In this document: positions 4,147 through 20,458 of the stretch, piece after piece
Position numbering within the stretch: position 1 is the first letter of the stretch
Layout of the letters: each line of letters starts with the position of its first letter
Source of the DNA: a virus
Lineage: Duplodnaviria; Heunggongvirae; Uroviricota; Caudoviricetes
Direction: 5' to 3' (one strand)
Virus record (IMG/VR): IMGVR_UViG_3300048503_000086
Length of the DNA: 21,565 nt
Made by a program: the position numbers and the translations under genes
The notes under the pieces: generated by a model
The model's database searches: none
What the model saw: the letters and a program-made list of their open reading frames with translations, nothing else
What the model was told of the DNA's origin: nothing

Positions 4147-5340
4147 TACCTTACGCGGCGAGAAATGATCTGTTCTTGTCTCTTGGACCGGATTTTGGTA
4201 CATCATAGCCGGTTCGCCGATGGATCGGCGGACGAGGCATCGGTCCATGAGGCGAATGGAGGTCAAGGATGGCTTGGTTTCGAGTGCGTTTGTCGGAGGA
4301 AGAGCAGCGGATTGTGGGGGAGGAGCGATGGGAGCATCCCCACGAGACCGACACGACGGAAAATGGAGGTTCTGTGGCTGCTGCACCATGGACTTACCCG
4401 AGAACAAGTGGCGAAAATCGTCGGCATCGGATCGGCAACAGTAAAACGATACGCAAATGCATACCGGGACGGCGGCCTCGATGGTCTGCGGCGCTGGGCG
4501 AAAAAGGGGCCAACCGGTTCGTTGGAGGCCCATCGCGAATTGCTCGCCGAGTCGTTCCGGGAACGACCGGCTTCAAGTGTGGCGGAGGCGGCCGACCGCA
4601 TCGAGCAATTGACTGGGATTCGTCGCGGGCCGACGCAAACGCGGTTGTTCTTGAAGAAGCTCGGCTTGCGTTGGCAGCGGATGGCTGCCATTCCCGTTCC
4701 CCCCAAAAAAGTGTCGAGGAACACGTGGCGGAGCAGCAGCGATTTCTCGCTGACGAACTGAGGCCCCTGCTGGATGCCGCCCAGGCCGGTCAGGGGCACG
4801 TGTTCTTCGTTGATGCGGCGCACTTCGTGTTCGGCACCTTTCTGTGCTGCTTGTGGTCGTTCGGGCGGCTGTTTGTAAGGGCGGCGTCGGGGCGGCAGCG
4901 ATTCAACGTCTTGGGGGCTTGGAACGCGGTGACGCGGGAGTTGATTGCCGTGACAAACACCACGGTGGTCAACACGGAGACCATGTGCGAACTGCTGCGC
5001 GAGGTCGCGGTTCGTGGACTGGTGGGGCCGATCACGTTCGTGCTGGACAACGCCCGCTACCAACGAAACGCCACGGTGCAGGCTCTGGCCGCCCAATTGG
5101 GGATTACCTTGCTCTACCTGCCTTCGTACTCCCCGAACCTGAATCTGATTGAGCGGCTGTGGAAGTTCATCAAGCGAAAGGAACTTTACGGCAAGTACCA
5201 TGCCCGGTTCGACGACTTTCGGACCGCGATTCAGACGTGTCTGTCTCAAGTCAGTACGACACACCGGAATCCCCTCAAAAGCCTGATGACCCTCAACTTT
5301 CAGACATTCGAGAACGTATCACTATTGTCCGCGTAAGGTA
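4147..5340 (+). mobile_element. IS630-family insertion sequence, 1194 bp
   Basis: Terminal inverted repeat TACCTTACGCGG (4147-4158 and 5329-5340), flanked by TA at 4145-4146 and 5341-5342. Confidence 0.93.
4269..5336 (+). pseudogene. IS630 transposase in three frame segments (apparent extra base near 4335-4350; -1 shift at CCCCCCAAAAAAG 4699-4711)
   Basis: N-terminus MAWFRVRLSEEEQR in one frame, the HTH region (RRKMEVLWLL...TVKRY) in the +1 frame, and the DDE part (FFVDAAHF, VLDNARY, LPSYSPNLNLIERLWK) back in the first frame. Confidence 0.8.
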
Positions 5341-8969: not shown

Positions 8970-9641
8970 GATTGTAGAAGCATCGTTTGAGGCGGGGGGC
9001 GTGCCGCGATCGCAAGATCCGCACGCCTCCTGCTTTTCCTCCCCATGGTAATGTTGCGAAGCGACCGCGGCGCGCCACAAGCAGGGGGCGGGGTCCTATT
9101 TTCGCATTCTTGGGGCGGGGTTACAGGGCGGGGGGCTGCCCAGGCGGCGGGATGCGTCTCTGGTACTTCAAGCCGCGCAGCCGCTCTCCGTCCGGCAAAG
9201 TTCAGGACTCAGGAACTACCGCAAGAACGCGACCGGGCAGTATGCCGGCTGGCACTCGAACGCCCAGCTTCTCGGCAAACTGCTGCCTGGGGACCGCATG
9301 TGGATGGTCACGTCGGGCAAGGCCCTTCAGCAGGAGGCCGAACAGGCGGGGTTCTTGGTGGCGGTATGGCAGGTGGCGGAGGCCCTGGGGAATCCGGGCG
9401 ATGATCCGACCTACCCCAAGGATCGCTACCGCTACCGGGTCGTGCCAAACGAGGGGGAATCCATTACACTGAATGAGCCGGTGCCGGTGGACCACATCCT
9501 CCGGCCGGCGCGAGGTAGCAAGGCCGTGTCCATCGGACGGTACTTGCAGGGACCAAGAAGACTGGATGAATCAACCATCCGCCTCCTGCGTGTGGCCGCG
9601 GGGCCGGATATGGCAATCAAGTGGTTGAAAGGAAATCGAGC

Positions 9642-12437
9642 ATGAGCATCCTGAAACCGTGGCGTCAAGTCGCCACCCCGCACGCTGACATCCGCCAGGG
9701 CAAGTTCGACACTTCGGTCTTCGCCGCCGACCTGGGCGAAGTGCTGGCCGGGCGCGGGGCCGTCGATTACCGCGACGCCTGCACCTTCTTCTCCAAGACC
9801 TACCTGACGGAAGGGCTAACCCAACTGGTCATCGACGTGATGCAGCGGTTGGCCGGCTCGGGCAAGACCGAGGCGGTCATCCAGCTTCAAACGGCTTTCG
9901 GCGGGGGCAAGACGCATACCCTGTTGACCCTCTACCACCTGCTGACCAGCCCGAACCCGGTCGCCAAGCTGCCGGAAATCCAGGCTTTGCTCGCCGCCGC
10001 CGGCCTCAAGCAGATTCCCACCGCCCGGGTGGCCTGCCTGGTCGGGACCGCGCTCAACGCGACTGCCGATCGAACCTTCTGGGGCGACCTGGCTTGGCAG
10101 CTTGGCGGCGAGCGGCTCTACGCCAAGCTGGCCAAGTGCGACGAGCAGAAGGTCTCGCCGGGCACCAATCTCCTGGGCGAAGTGTTGGCCGAGGCCGGCC
10201 CGTGCCTGATCCTGCTCGATGAAGTCCTGGCCTACCTGCTCAAGGCCGGTGGGGTCAAGGTCGGGGAGAGCACCCTGCGCGGCAACACCCTCACGTTCCT
10301 GCACGAATTGGGGATCGCCGTGGCCAACTGCCCTACGGCCTGCATGATCGCCACGCTCACCAGCCAGCTTGCCGAGTACATGGACGAGGGCGGCGAGCGG
10401 GCCTACACGTCGCTGGAAAAGGCGCTGGGACGGGTGGAGAAGGTCCGGCAGACCGTCGTGGGCGCTGAGATTTACGAGGTCATTCGCCGCCGCCTGTTCG
10501 AGAACCTCGGCGACCCGGCCGACCATCGCGCCGCGGCCGAGGCGTACTGGCAGGTCTACCGGCAGCTTGGCGAGGACGTGCCCTCGGGCTGCCGCGAGCC
10601 GTCTTATCGGGACGAGATGATCCGGGCCTACCCGTTCCACCCGGAGTTGATCTCCGTGCTGTACGAGCGATGGGGGTCGATCCCCGAGTTCCAGCGGACC
10701 CGCGGCGTGCTCCGGCTGCTCGCCGATGTTATCAGCAACCTCTATCAAGGGAAAGACAACGATCCCCTGATCCAGAGCGGGTCGGTGAACCTCGGCGCGT
10801 CGGCCGTGCGCGGCGAGTTGGTCAAACACACGGGCTACGGCAGCGTTTTTCACGGCGTCATCGAGAGCGACATCTCCGGCACCCACGCCAAGGCTCCTGA
10901 GATCGACCGGCAGCTTGGCAGTGAGTATGCCAAGGAGAGCGTGTCGGAAAAGCTCGCCCGGTCGATCTTCATGTACTCGTTCAGCGGCGGACAGCAGCGC
11001 GGGGCCACCCTGCCGCAGTTGCGATTGGCCGTGCTCAACCCCGAGATGGCCCCGCCGTTCGTCTCCGACTCGCTGGACCGCATGACGAAGCGGCTCTGGT
11101 TCCTCTATCAAGACAGCGGGCTCTACCGGTTCGACTCGCGGCCCAACCTCAACCGCATCCTGGTAGACCGGGAGGAAATGGTCCGTTCCGAGCCGGATAA
11201 GGTCAAGGAGTTTGCCAAGAAGACGCTCAACGATTTGATCGGCGACGCCGCTTTTCGCGTCTACCGCTATCCCGAGGAAGACCGCGACGTAGCTGACGAG
11301 CCACGGCTGAGTCTCGTTGTGCTGGACCTGCACCAGGTTGCCTCTGAAGATGAAATGCCCAAGGCGACCGAGGATTTCGTCACGGGCATCCTAAAGCAAC
11401 ACGGCAAGGGGTTCCGCAAGTACGCCAACGTGCTTGTTTTCCTAGCCCCCGACCAGCAGCGGGCTTCGGAAGTCACCGACGCTGCCCGGACGCTGATGGC
11501 CCTGCGAAACGTGGACGAAGACAAGGCGACGAAGAAACAGTTGTCGGAGGAGCAACTCAAAGACCTGGCCCAGCGCCTGAAAGAGGCCGAGGCCCGCCTG
11601 CCGGCGGCCCTGACGACGGCCTACCGGATCGTCCTGGTGCCCGCAGAGAAGAAGACCCTGCGGGTATTCGACATGGGGATTTCCAAGTTCAGCGGTCCAA
11701 GCACGTTGAGCAGCAAGGTCTTGGAGAAGTTGATCGACGAACAGATTCTCAAGGGGTTGGACCCGAAGATACTTATCGGCGAACGATTCGCGCTCTGGCC
11801 CGAGGACCAGGAAATGGTCAACGTGCGAACGCTGGCCGACTACTTCACCCAACTGACGCACCTGCCCCGACTGCTGGGACCGGACGTGCTGCCAGCCTGT
11901 CTGGCACAGGGCGTCCACCGAGGACTGTTCGGCTACGCTCTCGGCGACAGCGAGAAGAGGCAGTTCGATACCATCTACTATAAGGACAAGTCCATCACCG
12001 CCACGGATTGCCAGATCATCGAGTCGGCATGGCTGCTCCGGCCGAAGGTGGCCGAGGCGCTCATGCCGAAGCCGGAGCCGGCGACGGTGCCGACAACCGG
12101 AGGCGGCGGCACTGGTGTCGTTGGTGACGGCGGCGTTCCGACTCCCGGAGATGGCGAGGAGCCCTGGGCACCGGGCGGCGGGGGTGGCGTGCAGATCGTC
12201 GAGGGCGAGCGCCGGCTGAACAAGGTCCGCATCGAGATGAAGAACCTCCCCTGGGAGAATTGGAACGACATTTACAACGAGGTCATCGACCCCTTGGCCC
12301 AAGAAGGGGCCGAGGTCCGTTGCGACGTGATCGTCGTCGCCAAGGGCGAGGCGGCGATCCGTGAGAACACGATTGAATTGGGTATCAAGGAATCCCTTGC
12401 CCAGCGAGGCATTCAAGCGGATATTCAGACGGGGTGA
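9642..12437 (+). CDS. DUF499-family AAA+ ATPase of a restriction-like defence system
   Basis: N-terminus KPWRQVATPHADI...FAADL, Walker A TAFGGGKTH, Walker B LILLDE, and YPFHPEL...FQRTRGVLRLLA. ATG 9642 is coupled to the upstream stop. Confidence 0.92.
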   Translation: MSILKPWRQVATPHADIRQGKFDTSVFAADLGEVLAGRGAVDYRDACTFFSKTYLTEGLTQLVIDVMQRLAGSGKTEAVIQLQTAFGGGKTHTLLTLYHLLTSPNPVAKLPEIQALLAAAGLKQIPTARVACLVGTALNATADRTFWGDLAWQLGGERLYAKLAKCDEQKVSPGTNLLGEVLAEAGPCLILLDEVLAYLLKAGGVKVGESTLRGNTLTFLHELGIAVANCPTACMIATLTSQLAEYMDEGGERAYTSLEKALGRVEKVRQTVVGAEIYEVIRRRLFENLGDPADHRAAAEAYWQVYRQLGEDVPSGCREPSYRDEMIRAYPFHPELISVLYERWGSIPEFQRTRGVLRLLADVISNLYQGKDNDPLIQSGSVNLGASAVRGELVKHTGYGSVFHGVIESDISGTHAKAPEIDRQLGSEYAKESVSEKLARSIFMYSFSGGQQRGATLPQLRLAVLNPEMAPPFVSDSLDRMTKRLWFLYQDSGLYRFDSRPNLNRILVDREEMVRSEPDKVKEFAKKTLNDLIGDAAFRVYRYPEEDRDVADEPRLSLVVLDLHQVASEDEMPKATEDFVTGILKQHGKGFRKYANVLVFLAPDQQRASEVTDAARTLMALRNVDEDKATKKQLSEEQLKDLAQRLKEAEARLPAALTTAYRIVLVPAEKKTLRVFDMGISKFSGPSTLSSKVLEKLIDEQILKGLDPKILIGERFALWPEDQEMVNVRTLADYFTQLTHLPRLLGPDVLPACLAQGVHRGLFGYALGDSEKRQFDTIYYKDKSITATDCQIIESAWLLRPKVAEALMPKPEPATVPTTGGGGTGVVGDGGVPTPGDGEEPWAPGGGGGVQIVEGERRLNKVRIEMKNLPWENWNDIYNEVIDPLAQEGAEVRCDVIVVAKGEAAIRENTIELGIKESLAQRGIQADIQTG

Positions 12438-13971: not shown

Positions 13972-15033
13972 ACATGAAGTCCTTTTGCCAGCCGCCTAGA
14001 TTGCGCCCTCGTAACCCAGGGCTAGGCGGCGGCCAGGCAGGATGTGATGAGATCCGCTTCCCTTGTCCAGTCCCTTCCGAGTCGGTAAACTGTCAAAGTG
14101 TCCGGGCTTCCGCCCGTTCGTGCGGTGGAAGCCCGGTTACAGGCCATAGCAACATCGCTACTTTCGTACCCCCATTTGCAAGGGTGACCCATATAGCGTA
14201 GAGTATCAGTGACAACTTGAATTGACGCGCGTGCGTCAAGTTTCTGCTTCCCGAAAAACGACCAACCTGAGTCTGCGGACTCTTGAACAGATGAAGCAGT
14301 GCTTGGACCGCGCCCCTGCATGGGGGCGTCGGCCGAGTGCTGTTCATCTGTGCCCCTTGGTCGGGGTTTCGGGAGCAGCCTTGGTTGTGCGCCACGAGGC
14401 GCACAGATGGAATGAGTGAATGGCCCTCAAGGCCCGTCACTCCGCTGCTCGTTCAGGCGGGCGGCGCGTTGTTGGGACGTAGCTGCGGGCCGATGCTGGC
14501 TCGCGGTGAAAGAGCTGTCCCTGAAAGGTACTGGTGAGGCGCGAGGCAAACCGCCAAGAGGCCAGGCTTGACGAAGAAGTGACATGGTGAGTAACAGCGA
14601 AGCGGGTTTCAACCCACGGGAAACTGCTCCCCCTCCTCGTAATACTTTTGCCTAGCCTTGCAGGTAGCGGAGCAAGGATATACGGGGAGGCGATCGCGTT
14701 TCGACGTAAGAAGAAACGACCGAACCTGGTCAGAACCAATGCCAGGCCAAAGGATGCAACAGGCCACCTGTTTACCCTGCTGCCGATCGGGATTCCGCAG
14801 AGCGCGGCTCGGGTTGGTCTTTAACCGCCACCTAACTCACTTCGCAGAGTCCGTCTGTGTGAACGTGGGAGGCTTCTCGGGGAATGCCAAGGCGAGCAGT
14901 CCGCCGATGACCACGAGAAGCGTCGGAGCCGCCGTAGTAGTCCGAGGCTGGGAAAGCCAGCCACATGGCGAAGGGCGGCAGTCTTTTGGATTTTCGGCGC
15001 AGAGGTCACCGGATGGGATTCGGAGGCATCTCC

Positions 15034-15386
15034 GTGAATGTCGGTGAAATGCAACGAAAGCTGAGCCAGTGGGCGGAACAGCGACTGGAGGAGTTGGAGT
15101 ATCCGCTGTTTGTAGGGCGGAAAGACCTGCGACTTCACGACCTGTACCACCTGCTCTATGACGGAACGTGGCTGCGTCAAGCCCATGAACACGTTTGCCG
15201 CAACCGTGGGAGTCGAACCGCGGGATGCGACGGCCTGAACATGGGCGTGTTTAACGCCGACCTGGAGAATCAACTTTCCAAGTTGGCGGAACAACTGCGG
15301 ACGCAGACGTTCCGGCCACATCCCGTGCGACGGGTGTACATTCCCAAGAAGAACGGTAAGCTCCGTCCCCTGGGAATTCCGACGGT
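15034..15386 (+). pseudogene. ltrA: Group II intron RT/maturase, N-terminal fragment (RT0-RT2)
   Basis: GGAGG RBS and GTG start. Sequence MNVGEMQRKLSQWA...GSRTAGCDG...PVRRVYIPKKNGKLRPLGIPTV ends at the recombinase element. Confidence 0.88.
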
Positions 15387-15404
15387 ATAGGCATAATGCA
15401 CTCC

Positions 15405-17486
15405 TTACAATGAGCGTTGGGATTGTTGGCTGCGACTCTTCTGGATTCGGGTGGATTTCTCCGCCCATCGCTGCAATCGGCATTCCGTTTCCGGATCGAG
15501 GGTGATCCACAACGCGGAACCCCGGTTACGGCGGCGGGCCAGGACAACGCCACGTTCGATCCAGTAATACACGACGCCTGGGCTGACATCGAGTTTCTCA
15601 GCCACCTGGGCTACCGTCAGTTCTTCCGGTCGCTTCAGCGTCGGGGCTGAAATCCGATGCTTGTAGCGAATCCAGGCGATCATCGACTGCGTAAAAGACT
15701 TGCCCTTCGCGCTGCGGAAGCCCTGCTGGTTGAGCGTGTCGGCGATCTCCGCGTCGGCCTTCTCCGTCGCCAACGATCGGACCTGCTCCACAAGATCTTC
15801 AGGATACCGCAGCCGATCAGCGATGGGAAGCGGCCGGTTCACGGCGATGTCTTCGCAGGCACCTCCTTGCCAACGAACGTGGAGCAGGACCTGTCGAGGC
15901 TCGGTCAGCCGTTCGACCGTGATGTCCTTCACCAGCAATCGCAGCATCCTCTTCTTGTCCTTGGGGGGCGTCGTGGGGGCATTCCATAAACGCGGAAACT
16001 CTTTGGCCAAAGCCAGAATCTTCGCCCGTTGCTCCACTGTGACGACCAAGCCATGGCTGCGTTGGAAATCGGCGAACTCCTGTCGTATCTCCTCCAGGCG
16101 GCTGAGGGCCTCGTTCCAACGTTGCTCCAAGGAAGCCGCGACGAGACGGTTGGCCGGGTCCACCTGCTCGTAGCGCCGCTGGGCGAGCTGGGCCTCATAC
16201 TCCGCGCGCTGGAGCCGCATCCGCCATTGCCCCTGGGAGGCATCGTCACGTTTCTCCAGTTCCTGGAGCACGTCCAGAGAAAGGTGGAGCTGATCGGAGT
16301 TGACCACCTGTACGACGCGGTTAGATACCGCCTGGTCGATCAGACCGCAGGGAATGCTCATGCAGGACTTGCGTGAACGGCCTTGCCGCTTACGCCAGTT
16401 ACATTCATAAACCGGATAGATGCCGCCGTTGCCTTGGTAGCGCGGCGTTAAGCGACGGCCACAAACACGACACACCAAGAGCCCTTGCAAAAGGGCCAAA
16501 CCCTCGCGTGCCGGTCCGCTCAAGAGCGTGTCCTCCCCGTTCGTGCGGTTGCGTTCGAGGGTGTCCAGATTGTGCAGGTATTCGTCAAAGGAAAGGTAGC
16601 CCGGGTGGTGGTTCTGGATCTCCACCAGCCACGCGGGCCGAGGCATCGCTTTTACCCGTGAGCGGACCTCGCCGTTGGCAAGGACGTGCTTGACACAACG
16701 ATAACGGCCAAAGGCATAGACTCCTGCATACGCCGGGTTTTTCAATACGCTCCGAACCCGATCGTCCGTCAAGTGTCCCCAGAAGATTCGGCCGTTCCAA
16801 ACGCCGCCGTAGGCCCGCTTGGGGAACTTCAGCCCCCGCGCTGCGAACGCCTGGGCCACGGCATACGCGCTGCCTGTTTCACGGAACAGGGCAACCAACA
16901 ACTCCACGGCCCCGCGCACCTCGGCGTCAGGGTCCAGCACGATTGCGTTGGCGTCATCATAACACAACCCGACGGGCAACGGGAAACGCAACTCACCCTT
17001 CTTGGCTTTGTTCAGCTTGCCGCCCTGGAGGCGGACGTGGAGGAAATGCAACTCCGCCTGAGACATCTGGGCCTTCATCCCCAGCAGGAGGCCATCGTTG
17101 AAATCCGCCGGATCGTAGCAACCATCCTCGTCGATGATCAGCGTGCCGGTCAATGCACAGATCTCGATCAAGCGGTGCCAGTCGGCGTTGGATCGCGCCA
17201 GGCGTGAAGCCTCCAAAGCAAACACGGCACCCACTTCTCCCAGCGAGACTTCGGCTATCAACTTCTTGAAGTCGTCTCGGCCGCTGCTGGTCGCCCCCGA
17301 GATTCCCAGATCCCGGTCCAGGATGCGCATACTGGTTGCTGGCCATCCCAGCGAGATTGCCTTGTCCTTCAAGGCATACTGCCGTTCGGTGCTCTCCTGA
17401 TGGTTCCGCACCTGCCCCATCGTCGATTGACGCACGTAGACATACGCCGTCTTCTGCCGGTGGGATAACGTCACCTGGGTCGTCAT
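15405..17486 (-). CDS. Large serine recombinase (resolvase + recombinase + Zn-ribbon + coiled coil + C-terminal HTH), 693 aa
   Basis: Catalytic AYVYVRQST and EASRLARS, Zn ribbon LVCRVCG...YEC, C-terminal HTH ELTVAQVAEKLDVSPGVVYYWI. Frame intact. Confidence 0.93.
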   Translation of the reverse strand: MTTQVTLSHRQKTAYVYVRQSTMGQVRNHQESTERQYALKDKAISLGWPATSMRILDRDLGISGATSSGRDDFKKLIAEVSLGEVGAVFALEASRLARSNADWHRLIEICALTGTLIIDEDGCYDPADFNDGLLLGMKAQMSQAELHFLHVRLQGGKLNKAKKGELRFPLPVGLCYDDANAIVLDPDAEVRGAVELLVALFRETGSAYAVAQAFAARGLKFPKRAYGGVWNGRIFWGHLTDDRVRSVLKNPAYAGVYAFGRYRCVKHVLANGEVRSRVKAMPRPAWLVEIQNHHPGYLSFDEYLHNLDTLERNRTNGEDTLLSGPAREGLALLQGLLVCRVCGRRLTPRYQGNGGIYPVYECNWRKRQGRSRKSCMSIPCGLIDQAVSNRVVQVVNSDQLHLSLDVLQELEKRDDASQGQWRMRLQRAEYEAQLAQRRYEQVDPANRLVAASLEQRWNEALSRLEEIRQEFADFQRSHGLVVTVEQRAKILALAKEFPRLWNAPTTPPKDKKRMLRLLVKDITVERLTEPRQVLLHVRWQGGACEDIAVNRPLPIADRLRYPEDLVEQVRSLATEKADAEIADTLNQQGFRSAKGKSFTQSMIAWIRYKHRISAPTLKRPEELTVAQVAEKLDVSPGVVYYWIERGVVLARRRNRGSALWITLDPETECRLQRWAEKSTRIQKSRSQQSQRSL

Positions 17487-17616
17487 GGCACACCTCCTGG
17501 GCTGGGGAAAGAGGAGGTGTGTCGGCCAGATAAGCCTGGATCATATTGGCCACGAGAATGGCCAGGGCCTGAGTGTCGATCGGTTCGCTGTCGGGTGCCA
17601 TGGTTGTACCGGACAC
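17483..17616 (-). CDS. Probable short coding segment upstream of the recombinase (MSGTTMAPDSEPIDTQALAILVANMIQAYL...); 3' end uncertain
   Basis: AGGAGG RBS before GTG 17616 and an amphipathic helix. The frame has no stop at the recombinase start and runs on as an overlapping frame to 16993. Confidence 0.35.
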
Positions 17617-17711
17617 GCCGCCTCCTGGTGAAGGCCCGCGCGCTGGCCGACCTTGCGGCAGGCCAACCGCCAGCCGAGTTCTGGTTCACCGACCGATCGG
17701 GACGGCAGTCT

Positions 17712-17741
17712 GTTATGCCCCAAAGCGATTTCATGGGTCAA
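17712..17741 (-). promoter_or_regulatory. Putative sigma70 promoter for the recombinase operon
   Basis: Minus strand TTGACC (17741-17736), 18-nt spacer, CATAAC (17717-17712). Confidence 0.5.
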
Positions 17742-17743
17742 GA

Positions 17744-18043
17744 TCACTTTCTGCTTCGTCTGAGAAGGGCGATCAGTTCCGCCAATTGACGAAGACAAAG
17801 GCCGTCGAGAATTGGCAACGGGCTGATACCCAACGCAGCCACGGGAGACGGATCGGCCCGGTCGGTCCATTCCCGCGGCACGGCAAACGTGCCGTGGGAA
17901 GTTCCTTGGAGGATCAGCGTTTCAATGCCCCGGACTCGCCGGAGCTTAAGGATCGGGAACTGCTGCCCCTTGAGAGGGTGGAACGGATGGGTGATCTCCG
18001 CCGATCCCGAAAGGGCGCTGGGGTGAGGTGCAGTTACCGGCGA
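17744..18043 (-). CDS. DUF5372/Y4bD-like ORF body lacking its own start; the start codon lies at 15394, across the att junction
   Basis: SAEITHPFHPLKGQQF...TFAVPREWTD pattern. Joins in frame to ATG 15394 when the element is circularised (103 aa). Confidence 0.72.
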   Translation of the reverse strand, partial: SPVTAPHPSALSGSAEITHPFHPLKGQQFPILKLRRVRGIETLILQGTSHGTFAVPREWTDRADPSPVAALGISPLPILDGLCLRQLAELIALLRRSRK

Positions 18044-18065
18044 CCGTGCCCACCATGGATCGCAT

Positions 18066-18580
18066 CCGGACAAGATCGGGCGAAGGTGTTTGCCCAAGTG
18101 GACCACTTTGCTTTCTGGCAAATGGCCTACTGGCTCGCAGGCAAGTACCGATGTTCCACCTCGAAGATCATGCGGCGGTTTTACCGACGTGTCGCCGGGT
18201 CCATGACCCTCGCCACCGACGATATCGCCCTTGATCCCATCAGGGTGATTTCACGTCGGCGTTTCCGCCTTCGCAGCTTCGACAATCCCTACACGACGCC
18301 AGGTGCCAAGCTGATCCGCTCGGAGCAGTTTGGTCTGGAACCGGGCTGGCAGGGGAACGAACGCAATCCCGGCGTGGAGGACCTTCGCCATCTGGTGCTG
18401 CAACGGGACCAATGGACCTGCCAGCACTGCGGCGAGGGAATCGACCCCTCCGATTACGAGATTGACCACATTCGTCCTGTCCGCAGGTTCAAGTCTGTGG
18501 CCGCGGCCACTTTTCTGGAGAACCTTCAGACTTTATGTGGCCCATGTCATCGGGCCAAAACTCAGGATTCCAAGAGACGG
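18066..18580 (+). pseudogene. ltrA: Group II intron IEP C-terminal fragment: end of maturase (X) domain plus HNH endonuclease
   Basis: AKVFAQVDHFAFWQMAYWLAGKYR, then CQHCG...EIDHIRPV...NLQTLCGPCHRAKT, directly upstream of domain V. Boundaries approximate. Confidence 0.85.
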
Positions 18581-18581
18581 A

Positions 18582-18673
18582 GAGCCGGATGCTTTGAAAG
18601 TTGCAAGTCCGGTTCGGAGGGGGGAGCGGTGGAAACGTGCCTCATGGGGTAACGCGCCCCGCTCCTACCTTAC
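18582..18673 (+). ncRNA. Group II intron domains V and VI
   Basis: 34-nt hairpin GAGCCGGATGC-TTTGAAA-GTTGCAAGTCCGGTTC with the AGC triad, followed by GGAGGGGG and a D6 stem ending CCTACCTTAC. Confidence 0.93.
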
Positions 18674-20389: not shown

Positions 20390-20458
20390 TACAGCCAACG
20401 GGAATCGAACTCGCATTGCCGGCTGGAAGCCGGTGTCCTGCCGTTAGACGATGGCTGT
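20390..20458 (-). tRNA. Atypical tRNA with a TCC (Gly) anticodon, about 2 nt short; possibly pseudo
   Basis: 7-bp acceptor ACAGCCA/TGGCTGT, D arm GTCT-AACGGCA-GGAC, T loop TTCGATT, anticodon arm CCGGC-TTCCA-GCCGG. No encoded CCA directly after the discriminator. Confidence 0.7.

What the first reader, a model, noticed from the sequence alone, without database searches (positions are those of the whole stretch)
15380..18047. Gene that exists only on the excised circle: DUF5372-like ORF split across the att site of a minimal serine-recombinase element
Seen in sequence: on the minus strand the recombinase stop runs into an RBS and start, TAAGGAGTGCATT-ATG CCT ATA CCG TCG (ATG at 15394), then leaves the element. 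At the other end, a DUF5372/Y4bD-like ORF (18043-17744) has no start inside the element. Joining the ends at the shared CGAC (or GT) gives MPI(P/R)SPVTAPHPSALSGSAEITHPFHP...RRSRK*, 103 aa in frame, for either crossover position. While integrated, the same ATG gives only a 47-aa antisense peptide into the intron (15394-15251). A candidate promoter at 17712-17741 would transcribe recombinase then DUF5372 only on the 2661-bp circle. Inference: a built-in integration-state switch, with DUF5372 acting as a directionality, re-integration or maintenance factor. Established analogy: mycobacteriophages with attP inside the repressor gene, and junction promoters on IS circles. I know of no assigned function for DUF5372.
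Basis: partly seen in the sequence, partly recalled or inferred. Interest (0 to 1): 0.88.

Follow-up and report, generated by a model that had tools for sequence, protein, structure and literature searches.

The report
Recombinase partner gene intact only on circle
A 2.7-kb mobile element sits inside a group II intron. It carries a serine recombinase and a small partner gene whose ribosome-binding site and start codon lie at the opposite end of the element, so the partner can be made properly only once the element has excised into a circle.

Summary
On the minus strand the element reads DUF5372 body (18049-17744), a conserved 257-nt spacer, a 693-aa large serine recombinase (LSR, 17486-15405), then GGAG-N6-ATG (15394). 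No ATG, GTG or TTG precedes the DUF5372 domain inside the element.

The crossover is the dinucleotide CC (plus strand) at 15379-80 and 18049-50, not CGAC or GT. The circle is 2670 bp and the junction ORF is 106 aa (MPIPSARSPVTA...).

Supporting evidence:
- Four metagenome contigs from four samples carry exactly this junction; one has circular-assembly overlap.
- In 85 of 87 related loci the ends join into an open, in-frame ORF.
- Among 65 unique elements, 63 start with ATG and 2 with GTG, 63 have a Shine-Dalgarno (SD), and only 1 has an in-frame ATG in the element-borne leader.
- In-silico excision restores the RT motif LG(I/V)P-xxx-D(R/K) in 45 of 57 elements.
- One genome holds 5 empty and 4 occupied copies of one intron.
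- A complex model places DUF5372 at the LSR zinc-ribbon/coiled-coil base, where directionality factors bind (0.74, controls 0.00).

Function is inferred: a circle-only LSR cofactor, most likely favouring re-integration.

The parts
15379..15380 (.). Left crossover dinucleotide, CC on plus (GG on the element's coding strand); attL core
   Evidence: Defined by alignment to junction contigs. The same dinucleotide is found at both ends in relatives. Empty versus occupied sites in G001 agree.
15381..15401 (-). attP left arm, 21 nt (GTGCATT-ATG-CCTATACCGTC on minus). It holds the DUF5372 start codon (15394-15392) and codons 2-5.
   Evidence: It shows dyad symmetry with the right arm (GTGCA...ACCGT).
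15401..15404 (-). Shine-Dalgarno GGAG, 6 nt upstream of the ATG and directly after the LSR stop TAA (15407-15405)
   Evidence: An SD-like motif is present in 63 of 65 unique elements, although the distance from LSR stop to ATG varies from -4 to +48 nt.
15405..17486 (-). Large serine recombinase, 693 aa, with an extra C-terminal HTH (residues 623-652)
   Evidence: Pfam Resolvase 4.4e-19, Recombinase 7.5e-14, Zn_ribbon_recom 3.8e-11, HTH_17 4.5e-5. 38 homologues are aligned in A3.
17487..17743 (-). Conserved spacer / 5' leader of the LSR. It contains the candidate promoter TTGACC-N18-CATAAC (17741-17712), whose -35 begins 2 nt after the DUF5372 stop.
   Evidence: Mean identity is 91% across six relatives. 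Both hexamers are invariant and the spacer is variable. The consensus scan did not call it.
17744..18049 (-). DUF5372 body (codons 6-106 plus stop). It has no SD, no start codon and no upstream promoter inside the element.
   Evidence: PF17342, 59.9 bits against a cutoff of 25. Sequence read. AF2 model with pLDDT 84.5.
18028..18048 (-). attP right arm, 21 nt (CACGGTCGCCGGTAACTGCAC on minus). It encodes leader codons 6-12.
   Evidence: The AACTGCAC motif is conserved across lineages.
18049..18050 (.). Right crossover dinucleotide, CC on plus; attR core
14965..15380 (+). Host target, left part: N-terminal part of a group II intron RT, ending in ...RPLGIP
   Evidence: ORF listed. The RT motif is restored by in-silico excision in relatives.
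18051..18673 (+). Host target, right part: an RT remnant (TMDR, then thumb/X and HNH domains) followed by intron domain V/VI (18580-18673)
   Evidence: HNH 1.6e-9. Rfam Intron_gpII 56.9 bits. Aligns to residues 289-446 of RT P0084.

Best explanation
Window 15381-18050 is a 2670-bp mobile element moved by a large serine recombinase (LSR). It is integrated antisense into the DNA that encodes the conserved LGIP|T..DR motif of a group II intron reverse transcriptase.

Its attP site (21 + 2 + 21 bp) lies inside the 5' end of the element's second gene, DUF5372. Integration therefore separates two pieces. The SD, ATG and codons 1-5 end up just past the LSR stop at the left end. Codons 6-106 end up at the right end with no promoter, SD or start.

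Only when the ends are joined, on the excised circle or a head-to-tail multimer, is there a complete cistron. It is then the second gene of an operon: promoter, LSR, DUF5372.

The first 23 residues are an attP-encoded linker. The functional part is an SH3/KOW-like barrel followed by a C-terminal helix. [quoted passage not shown]

I therefore infer that DUF5372 is a cofactor that reports the element's state to the recombinase. When the protein is absent the element is integrated. When it is present the element is free. The most likely effect is to favour attP x attB re-integration (or block further attL x attR or attP side reactions). After integration the gene is taken apart again.

What is shown: the gene anatomy, the crossover position, the target, conservation of the split, and the existence of junction molecules. 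What is inferred: the binding (a model only), the direction of the effect, and the promoter.
For: Anatomy and domains.

Junction molecules:
- L001, L002, L003 and L004 come from four samples and assemblers. Each carries LSR C-terminus, stop, 10 nt, ATG, DUF5372 without a break.
- L001's first 141 bases equal its last 141, the signature of a circular k141 assembly.
- The rebuilt window junction aligns to them without gaps.

Conservation:
- 85 of 87 loci give an open in-frame junction ORF of 104-120 aa, with matching dinucleotides at both ends.
- In 65 unique elements the left-arm start is ATG in 63 and GTG in 2, and an SD is present in 63.
- In-frame ATG in the element-borne leader occurs in 1 of 65.
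- The distance from LSR stop to ATG varies from -4 to +48 nt, so the start site is not simply the LSR 3' end.

Crossover and target:
- Joining the flanks restores xLG(I/V)P-xxx-D(R/K)xxQ in 45 of 57 elements. GG-core elements are always antisense to the RT (33) and CC-core elements always sense (11).
- Genome G001 has 5 empty and 4 occupied copies of one intron, differing exactly at CC.

Binding model:
- Score 0.74 in three runs; best of 3 controls 0.00.
- That mark was reached by 58 of 80 solved complexes and 2 of 110 mismatched pairs. The counts hold only roughly here because my own alignments were used.
- The runs agree in at least 73% of contacts, and partner pLDDT is at least 71.
- The interface covers LSR 338-343, 394-413, 479-523 and 536-545, and DUF5372 21-26 (HPFHPL) and 68-100.

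Logic: the split is universal in the family. That is hard to reconcile with a product needed before excision and easy to reconcile with one needed only after it.
Against: - No expression or recombination data exist. The binding is a model's confidence, not a measurement.
- No lineage has an indel in the 23-codon leader. The 85 in-frame cases are therefore not independent events, and the spacing is partly fixed by attP geometry.
- 37 of 65 elements have an in-frame TTG or GTG in the leader (TTG at codon 13 in 28). Gene callers and PGAP use these, so some integrated-state translation is not excluded in those lineages.
- In characterised phage LSRs the enzyme alone integrates and the cofactor drives excision. 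A pro-integration cofactor would reverse that logic.
- Junction contigs were found only in the window's own two-gene lineage: 2 of 204 protein clusters, and none among the 120 clusters listed from the search with the alphaproteobacterial (three-gene) query.
- A junction could also come from a tandem dimer.
Confidence: 0.6

Rival explanations
1. DUF5372 is a conventional RDF that drives excision. In the integrated state it is made at a low level from internal TTG/GTG codons, from chance starts in the flank, or from read-through. The circle-borne SD-ATG only boosts it afterwards, producing a positive-feedback burst that excises other copies or delays re-integration.
For: The predicted interface is the known RDF site (PMC11795197). 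37 of 65 elements have an in-frame TTG or GTG in the leader, and 30 of 65 have some in-frame start in the flank. This would match the canonical LSR rule that the enzyme alone integrates.
Against: The window's lineage has no ATG, GTG or TTG between the crossover and the domain, yet it is the lineage in which circles are seen. Only 7 of 65 flank starts have an SD-like motif. The gene sits at the very edge of the element with no internal promoter upstream. A factor needed before excision would be selected to stay intact when integrated, and the opposite arrangement is universal.
Confidence: 0.2
2. This is a suicide-type lock. DUF5372 is an obligatory LSR subunit for every reaction. Integration dismantles its gene, so the integrated element is frozen until a complete gene is supplied in trans by an incoming circle. 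Archaeal 'suicidal' integrases are proposed to behave in this way.
For: The split-gene logic is the same as that described for partitioned integrases (PMC8371274). DUF5372 is present in every member of the LSR family sampled. A derivative that lacks the LSR catalytic domain is still found both integrated (L086) and as a circle (L001), which shows mobilisation in trans.
Against: The first circle in a cell would need an outside source. Yet genomes hold many copies, with occupied and empty sites among paralogous introns. The LSR gene keeps its own conserved promoter-like region and SD in the integrated state, which is pointless if the enzyme is inert there.
Confidence: 0.12
3. The split has no function. 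attP simply overlaps the gene's 5' end. The conserved ATG and GGAG are recombinase-binding bases, and the junction contigs are assembly artefacts or tandem repeats. DUF5372 would then be a regulator or maintenance protein unrelated to recombination state.
For: The ATG lies inside the conserved left-arm motif GTGCAnTATG. No indels occur in the leader, so frame conservation is weak evidence on its own. The fold search gives only generic SH3/KOW similarity (Z 5-6).
Against: The symmetric positions of the right arm vary freely while the left arm keeps ATG or GTG. The SD lies at or beyond the edge of the 44-bp site. Four assemblies made with different assemblers give the same junction. The complex model scores 0.74 against 0.00 for controls.
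Confidence: 0.08

Closest known systems
Recombination directionality factors of large serine integrases (phiC31 gp3, Bxb1 gp47, SPbeta SprB, TG1 RDF)
   Same: It is a small accessory protein encoded beside an LSR. [quoted passage not shown]
   Different: No sequence or fold relation was found; DUF5372 is an SH3/KOW-like barrel plus a helix. Its gene is cut by attP, so a properly initiated product can arise only after excision. This argues for an effect opposite to, or at least timed differently from, a classical RDF. Activity is untested.
SSV1-type 'suicidal' tyrosine integrases of archaeal viruses and plasmids
   Same: attP lies inside a recombination gene. That gene is whole only on the circular form and is partitioned by integration (PMC8371274).
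   Different: There the integrase gene itself is split, and the enzyme is a tyrosine recombinase. Here the LSR gene stays whole, and an accessory gene loses its SD, start codon and five codons.
Tn4451/Tn4453 (TnpX) circular intermediate
   Same: It is a small element moved by a large serine recombinase, and its circle junction creates an expression signal that is absent when integrated (Lyras & Rood 2000, cited in PMC13023037).
   Different: In Tn4451 a promoter for the recombinase is assembled. Here a whole cistron for a second protein is assembled, while the candidate LSR promoter is internal. The LSR is only distantly related to characterised ones.
Integration-dependent immunity of mycobacteriophages, and junction promoters of IS circles (IS911, IS30, IS110 family). 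This comparison rests on my own knowledge and was not checked here.
   Same: The integration state is read out through an att site or end junction that interrupts a gene or promoter.
   Different: In the phages, integration truncates the 3' end of a repressor and stabilises it. In IS circles only -35 and -10 elements are joined. Neither involves a recombinase-binding cofactor.
skin / SPbeta-type LSR elements that interrupt host genes (sigK, spsM). This comparison rests on my own knowledge; PMC5025042 appeared in the hit list but was not opened.
   Same: LSR-mediated excision rebuilds an interrupted ORF.
   Different: There the rebuilt gene belongs to the host and lies at attB. Here the rebuilt gene belongs to the element and lies at attP. 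In relatives, in-silico excision also restores the host RT ORF.

Membership tests
Large serine recombinase | N-terminal resolvase catalytic domain with the conserved Arg/Ser nucleophile region | tested here: met
   PF00239 E 4.4e-19 over residues 14-165. R19, Q20 and S21 are invariant in 38 homologues.
Large serine recombinase | Recombinase domain plus a zinc-ribbon domain with an inserted coiled coil | tested here: met
   PF07508 7.5e-14 and PF13408 3.8e-11. The coiled coil at about 395-500 is read from the sequence only.
Large serine recombinase | Conservative recombination at a 2-bp crossover, with insertion polarity set by that dinucleotide | tested here: met
   The same dinucleotide is found at both ends. 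GG-core elements are antisense and CC-core elements sense to the RT. Empty and occupied sites differ exactly there. No biochemistry was done.
DUF5372 (PF17342; RefSeq 'Y4bD/Y4pK family protein') | Match to the Pfam model above its gathering score | tested here: met
   59.9 bits against a cutoff of 25, profile positions 1-74 of 78.
LSR recombination directionality factor | Binds its cognate LSR at the DBD2 / coiled-coil base | tested here: inconclusive
   Complex model 0.74, best control 0.00. This is a prediction only.
LSR recombination directionality factor | Stimulates attL x attR and inhibits attP x attB | not testable with these tools
   This needs recombination assays. The gene anatomy argues against a need for the protein before excision.
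Suicidal (SSV-type) integrase systems | The recombinase gene itself is partitioned by integration | tested here: not met
   The LSR ORF 15405-17486 is intact in the integrated state.
Junction-promoter elements (Tn4451, IS circles) | -35 and -10 elements lie on opposite ends and are joined only in the circle | tested here: inconclusive
   No promoter-like site was called across the ends. The conserved hexamer pair lies wholly inside the element. Promoter rules for this host are unknown.
Group II intron (host site) | Domain V/VI RNA and an intron-encoded RT with maturase and HNH domains | tested here: met
   RF00029 56.9 bits at 18580-18673. HNH 1.6e-9. The RT fingers/palm (about 280 codons) are missing, so this intron copy is defective.

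The most novel reading that the evidence does not exclude
DUF5372 is a new kind of LSR cofactor, an 'integration directionality factor'. In this family the recombinase alone excises. The cofactor can be made only once attP has been re-formed, and it switches the enzyme to integration. It then removes its own gene by being integrated. The result is a two-protein, self-resetting toggle that needs no regulator. The whole family uses the toggle to colonise a conserved motif of group II intron reverse transcriptases, as a parasite of a parasite.
Probability: 0.35. Interest if true: 0.9.

Novelty: new variant of a known kind. Interest (0 to 1): 0.8.

Why it matters
- It gives a first, testable function to two widespread families of unknown function: DUF5372 here, and DUF6788 as the usual third gene. 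I found no paper for either in the library searched.
- It shows a very economical way to couple recombinase behaviour to the physical state of the element: put attP inside the cofactor's 5' end.
- If the cofactor really biases an LSR towards integration, or is a strict on/off subunit, it would be a new handle on the directionality of large serine integrases, which are used in genome engineering.
- It also reveals a multi-phylum group of LSR elements that specifically home to the LGIP motif-coding DNA of group II intron RTs, with orientation set by the GG or CC core.
- Cultured carriers exist for experiments, for example Paraburkholderia phymatum STM815 pBPHY02, Burkholderia sp. PAMC 26561, Bradyrhizobium iriomotense and Neorhodopirellula pilleata Pla100.

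Tried and rejected
Rejected. It leaves a 9-nt gap against real junction contigs. The shared ACNGTCG reflects similarity between the attP and attB inner arms.
- **Window's own genome.** Not held.
- **DUF6788 remnant in the window's spacer.** None found by tblastn.
- **Upstream ORF as a third gene.** A conserved SD+GTG ORF starts at 17616 and overlaps the LSR start. Variable sites fall 10/12/12 by codon position, so there is no coding signature.
- **L077 and P0083/L169.** These looked like possible junction forms but are ordinary integrated copies.
- **Junction-form proteins among the clusters from the three-gene (alphaproteobacterial) query.** None among the 120 clusters listed.
- **Viral contigs.** One weak partial hit only.
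- **Fold searches.** Foldseek against PDB gave no hit at E <= 0.001. VIA-align gave generic SH3/KOW/Tudor barrels at Z 5-6.
- **ESM Atlas.** No usable hit.
- **Sigma-70 scan.** No promoter called.
- **Paper searches.** Nothing for DUF5372, DUF6788, y4bD or y4pK, nor for LSR elements in group II introns.
- **LSR-mediated origin of the RT deletion.** Considered and dropped. About 15 nt of normal RT sequence remain to the right of the crossover.
Full report
**What is in the window.** On the minus strand the region reads as follows.
- An ORF with a DUF5372 domain (PF17342, 59.9 bits against a cutoff of 25). The domain starts at the ITHPFHPL motif.
- A 257-nt spacer.
- A 693-aa large serine recombinase (LSR, 17486-15405) with Resolvase, Recombinase and Zn_ribbon_recom domains and an extra C-terminal HTH.
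- The LSR stop TAA, followed at once by GGAG, six bases, and ATG at 15394.

Within the element, no ATG, GTG or TTG precedes the DUF5372 domain in frame. The first such codon is a GTG deep inside the domain. On the plus strand the surroundings are a group II intron. An RT N-terminus ends in RPLGIP at 15380. An RT thumb/HNH remnant follows the element. Rfam finds domain V/VI at 18580-18673 (56.9 bits).

**Where the ends really are.** The closest DUF5372 homologues include two 106-aa proteins, P0004 and P0005. Their contigs L001-L004 come from four different samples. Each carries LSR C-terminus, stop, 10 nt, ATG and DUF5372 in one piece. L001 is a k141 contig whose first and last 141 bases are identical, which is the signature of a circular assembly. 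Its unit is 2162 bp and lacks LSR residues 1-110.

Comparing these junctions with the window's two ends puts the crossover at a single shared dinucleotide. It is GG on the coding strand and CC on plus, at 15379-80 and 18049-50. It is flanked by two 21-nt arms with dyad symmetry (GTGCA...ACCGT).

My reconstruction aligns to L001, L002 and L004 without a gap. The circle is 2670 bp. The junction ORF is 321 nt, or 106 aa, beginning MPIPSARSPVTAPHPS.

**Independent checks of the crossover.** I fetched 160 further DUF5372 loci from genomes and metagenomes. Nearly all have DUF5372 followed by an LSR on the same strand.
- In 87 loci with both ends present, the same rule was applied: ATG + 11 nt + dinucleotide at one end, and dinucleotide + 13 nt + AACTGCAC at the other. 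It gives identical dinucleotides at both ends and an open in-frame ORF of 104-120 aa in 85.
- Joining the flanks restores an uninterrupted RT motif, xLG(I/V)P-xxx-D(R/K)xxQ, in 45 of 57 unique elements with enough flank. Elements with a GG core always lie antisense to the RT (33). Those with a CC core always lie sense (11). This is as expected if the central dinucleotide sets polarity.
- In one Vicinamibacterales genome (G001), nine copies of one intron are present. Five are empty (GGGCATT-CC-GTGTCTCC) and four are occupied, and they differ exactly at CC.

**Is the split gene a conserved design?** Among 65 unique elements, the codon at the outer edge of the left arm is ATG in 63 and GTG in 2. 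An SD-like motif precedes it in 63. The distance from the LSR stop to this start ranges from -4 to +48 nt, so the signal is not just the tail of the LSR gene. The symmetric positions in the right arm are variable.

Between the crossover and the domain, an in-frame ATG occurs in 1 of 65 elements. TTG or GTG occurs in 37, mostly a Leu codon at position 13, and gene callers and PGAP pick these. In the flank, 13 of 65 have an in-frame ATG and 7 of 65 have any start with an SD.

One caveat applies. No lineage has an indel in the 23-codon leader. The many in-frame cases are therefore not independent, and attP geometry fixes part of the spacing.

**What DUF5372 looks like and what it may touch.**
- The AF2 model (pLDDT 84.5) has a disordered leader, a small beta barrel (residues 16-58) and a C-terminal helix (83-100).
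- Structure searches give only generic SH3/KOW/Tudor barrels, with Z 5-6 at rmsd about 2 Å over about 49 residues.
- A complex model of the full LSR with DUF5372 scored 0.74 in three runs, against 0.00 for the best of three controls. That mark was reached by 58 of 80 solved complexes and 2 of 110 mismatched pairs, and these counts hold only roughly because I used my own alignments. The runs agree in at least 73% of contacts, and partner pLDDT is at least 71.
- The interface covers the zinc-ribbon CxxC (338-343), the two ends of the coiled coil (394-413 and 479-523) and 536-545 on the LSR. On DUF5372 it covers HPFHPL and the C-terminal helix, but not the leader.

This is a prediction, not a measurement.

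**How it most likely works.** Three things are shown. The cistron is complete only on attP. The body has no promoter, SD or start when integrated. Junction molecules exist.

The following steps are inferred.
- A conserved hexamer pair, TTGACC-N18-CATAAC, starts two bases after the DUF5372 stop. Its hexamers are invariant and its spacer variable across six relatives, though the consensus scan did not call it. It drives the LSR.
- On the circle the same transcript runs across attP, and DUF5372 is translated behind the LSR.
- The protein binds the LSR and changes which sites it recombines.

The split is universal. A product needed before excision should therefore have been selected to stay intact. 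I therefore prefer a role after excision: promoting attP x attB or blocking other reactions. Integration then dismantles the gene.

Three rivals remain: a classical RDF made from leaky internal starts, an obligatory subunit that locks the integrated element (as proposed for partitioned archaeal integrases, PMC8371274), and a non-functional overlap. They are weighed in the rivals section.

**Relation to known systems.** The principle that an att site or end junction interrupts a gene or promoter is known. Examples are suicidal SSV-type integrases (PMC8371274), the Tn4451 junction promoter for TnpX (Lyras & Rood 2000, cited in PMC13023037), and, from my own knowledge, integration-dependent phage immunity and IS circle promoters.

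What I could not find described:
- an LSR accessory gene split in this way;
- any function for DUF5372;
- LSR elements that home to the RT motif of group II introns.

The LSR is only remotely similar to solved or curated LSRs. The family is essentially absent from viral contigs. I rate this a new variant of a known kind.

**Wider family.** Most lineages carry a third gene, DUF6788 (PF20586, E 1e-23), between DUF5372 and the LSR. RefSeq annotates the trio inside RT genes on Paraburkholderia and Burkholderia plasmids. The window's lineage (Planctomycetia and Opitutaceae MAGs) has no trace of it, so LSR plus DUF5372 appear to be the minimal set. All junction contigs I found belong to this two-gene lineage. 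A derivative lacking the LSR catalytic domain occurs both as a circle (L001) and integrated (L086). This implies mobilisation in trans.

Noticed in passing
window 15370-15385 and 18045-18070; loci L006-L165: The whole LSR/DUF5372 family targets the DNA that encodes the conserved LG(I/V)P|xxxD(R/K) motif of group II intron reverse transcriptases. This holds across many phyla. Insertion orientation is set by a GG or CC core. Rare cores (GT in L052, GC in L157) and a few non-RT sites also occur.
   Followed up: yes
L028:3451-3786; L166:4952-5206; L167:4874-5206: Most lineages carry a third gene, DUF6788 (about 112 aa, with a CGKxGCxC...GHGP motif), between DUF5372 and the LSR. It is absent from the window's lineage. 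It is a candidate second cofactor, possibly a classical RDF.
   Followed up: partly
L001 (whole contig) and L086:1935-4246: A non-autonomous derivative lacks the LSR catalytic domain (residues 1-110) and part of the spacer. It is found as a circular contig in one sample and integrated in an RT gene in another.
   Followed up: partly
window 18051-18652: The host intron's RT ORF lacks about 280 codons (fingers/palm). The deletion begins about 15 nt to the right of the crossover, with a frame change, so this intron copy cannot encode a working RT.
   Followed up: partly
window 17487-17743 (minus strand): The spacer is 91% identical across six relatives, about as conserved as the coding regions. 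It contains a conserved SD+GTG (17616) that opens an ORF overlapping the LSR start for about 200 codons. Variable sites show no codon-position bias. Its role is unexplained; it could be a regulatory RNA, a DNA site or a uORF.
   Followed up: partly
window 15405-15620 (LSR residues ~620-693): The LSR has a C-terminal HTH_17/MerR-like helix-turn-helix extension. It is conserved in the family (W642 and I643 are invariant in 38 homologues).
   Followed up: no
L079 (whole contig, 2935 bp): This SPAdes contig has a stated coverage of 927x and runs exactly from one crossover to the other. That suggests a very high-copy or collapsed element in a Chromatiaceae MAG.
   Followed up: no
window 4269-5336, 9621-12437, 20390-20458: Elsewhere in the window there is a DDE_3 (IS630-like) transposase ORF, a 938-aa DUF499 protein and a tRNA gene on the minus strand. 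Several other large ORFs have no Pfam match.
   Followed up: no
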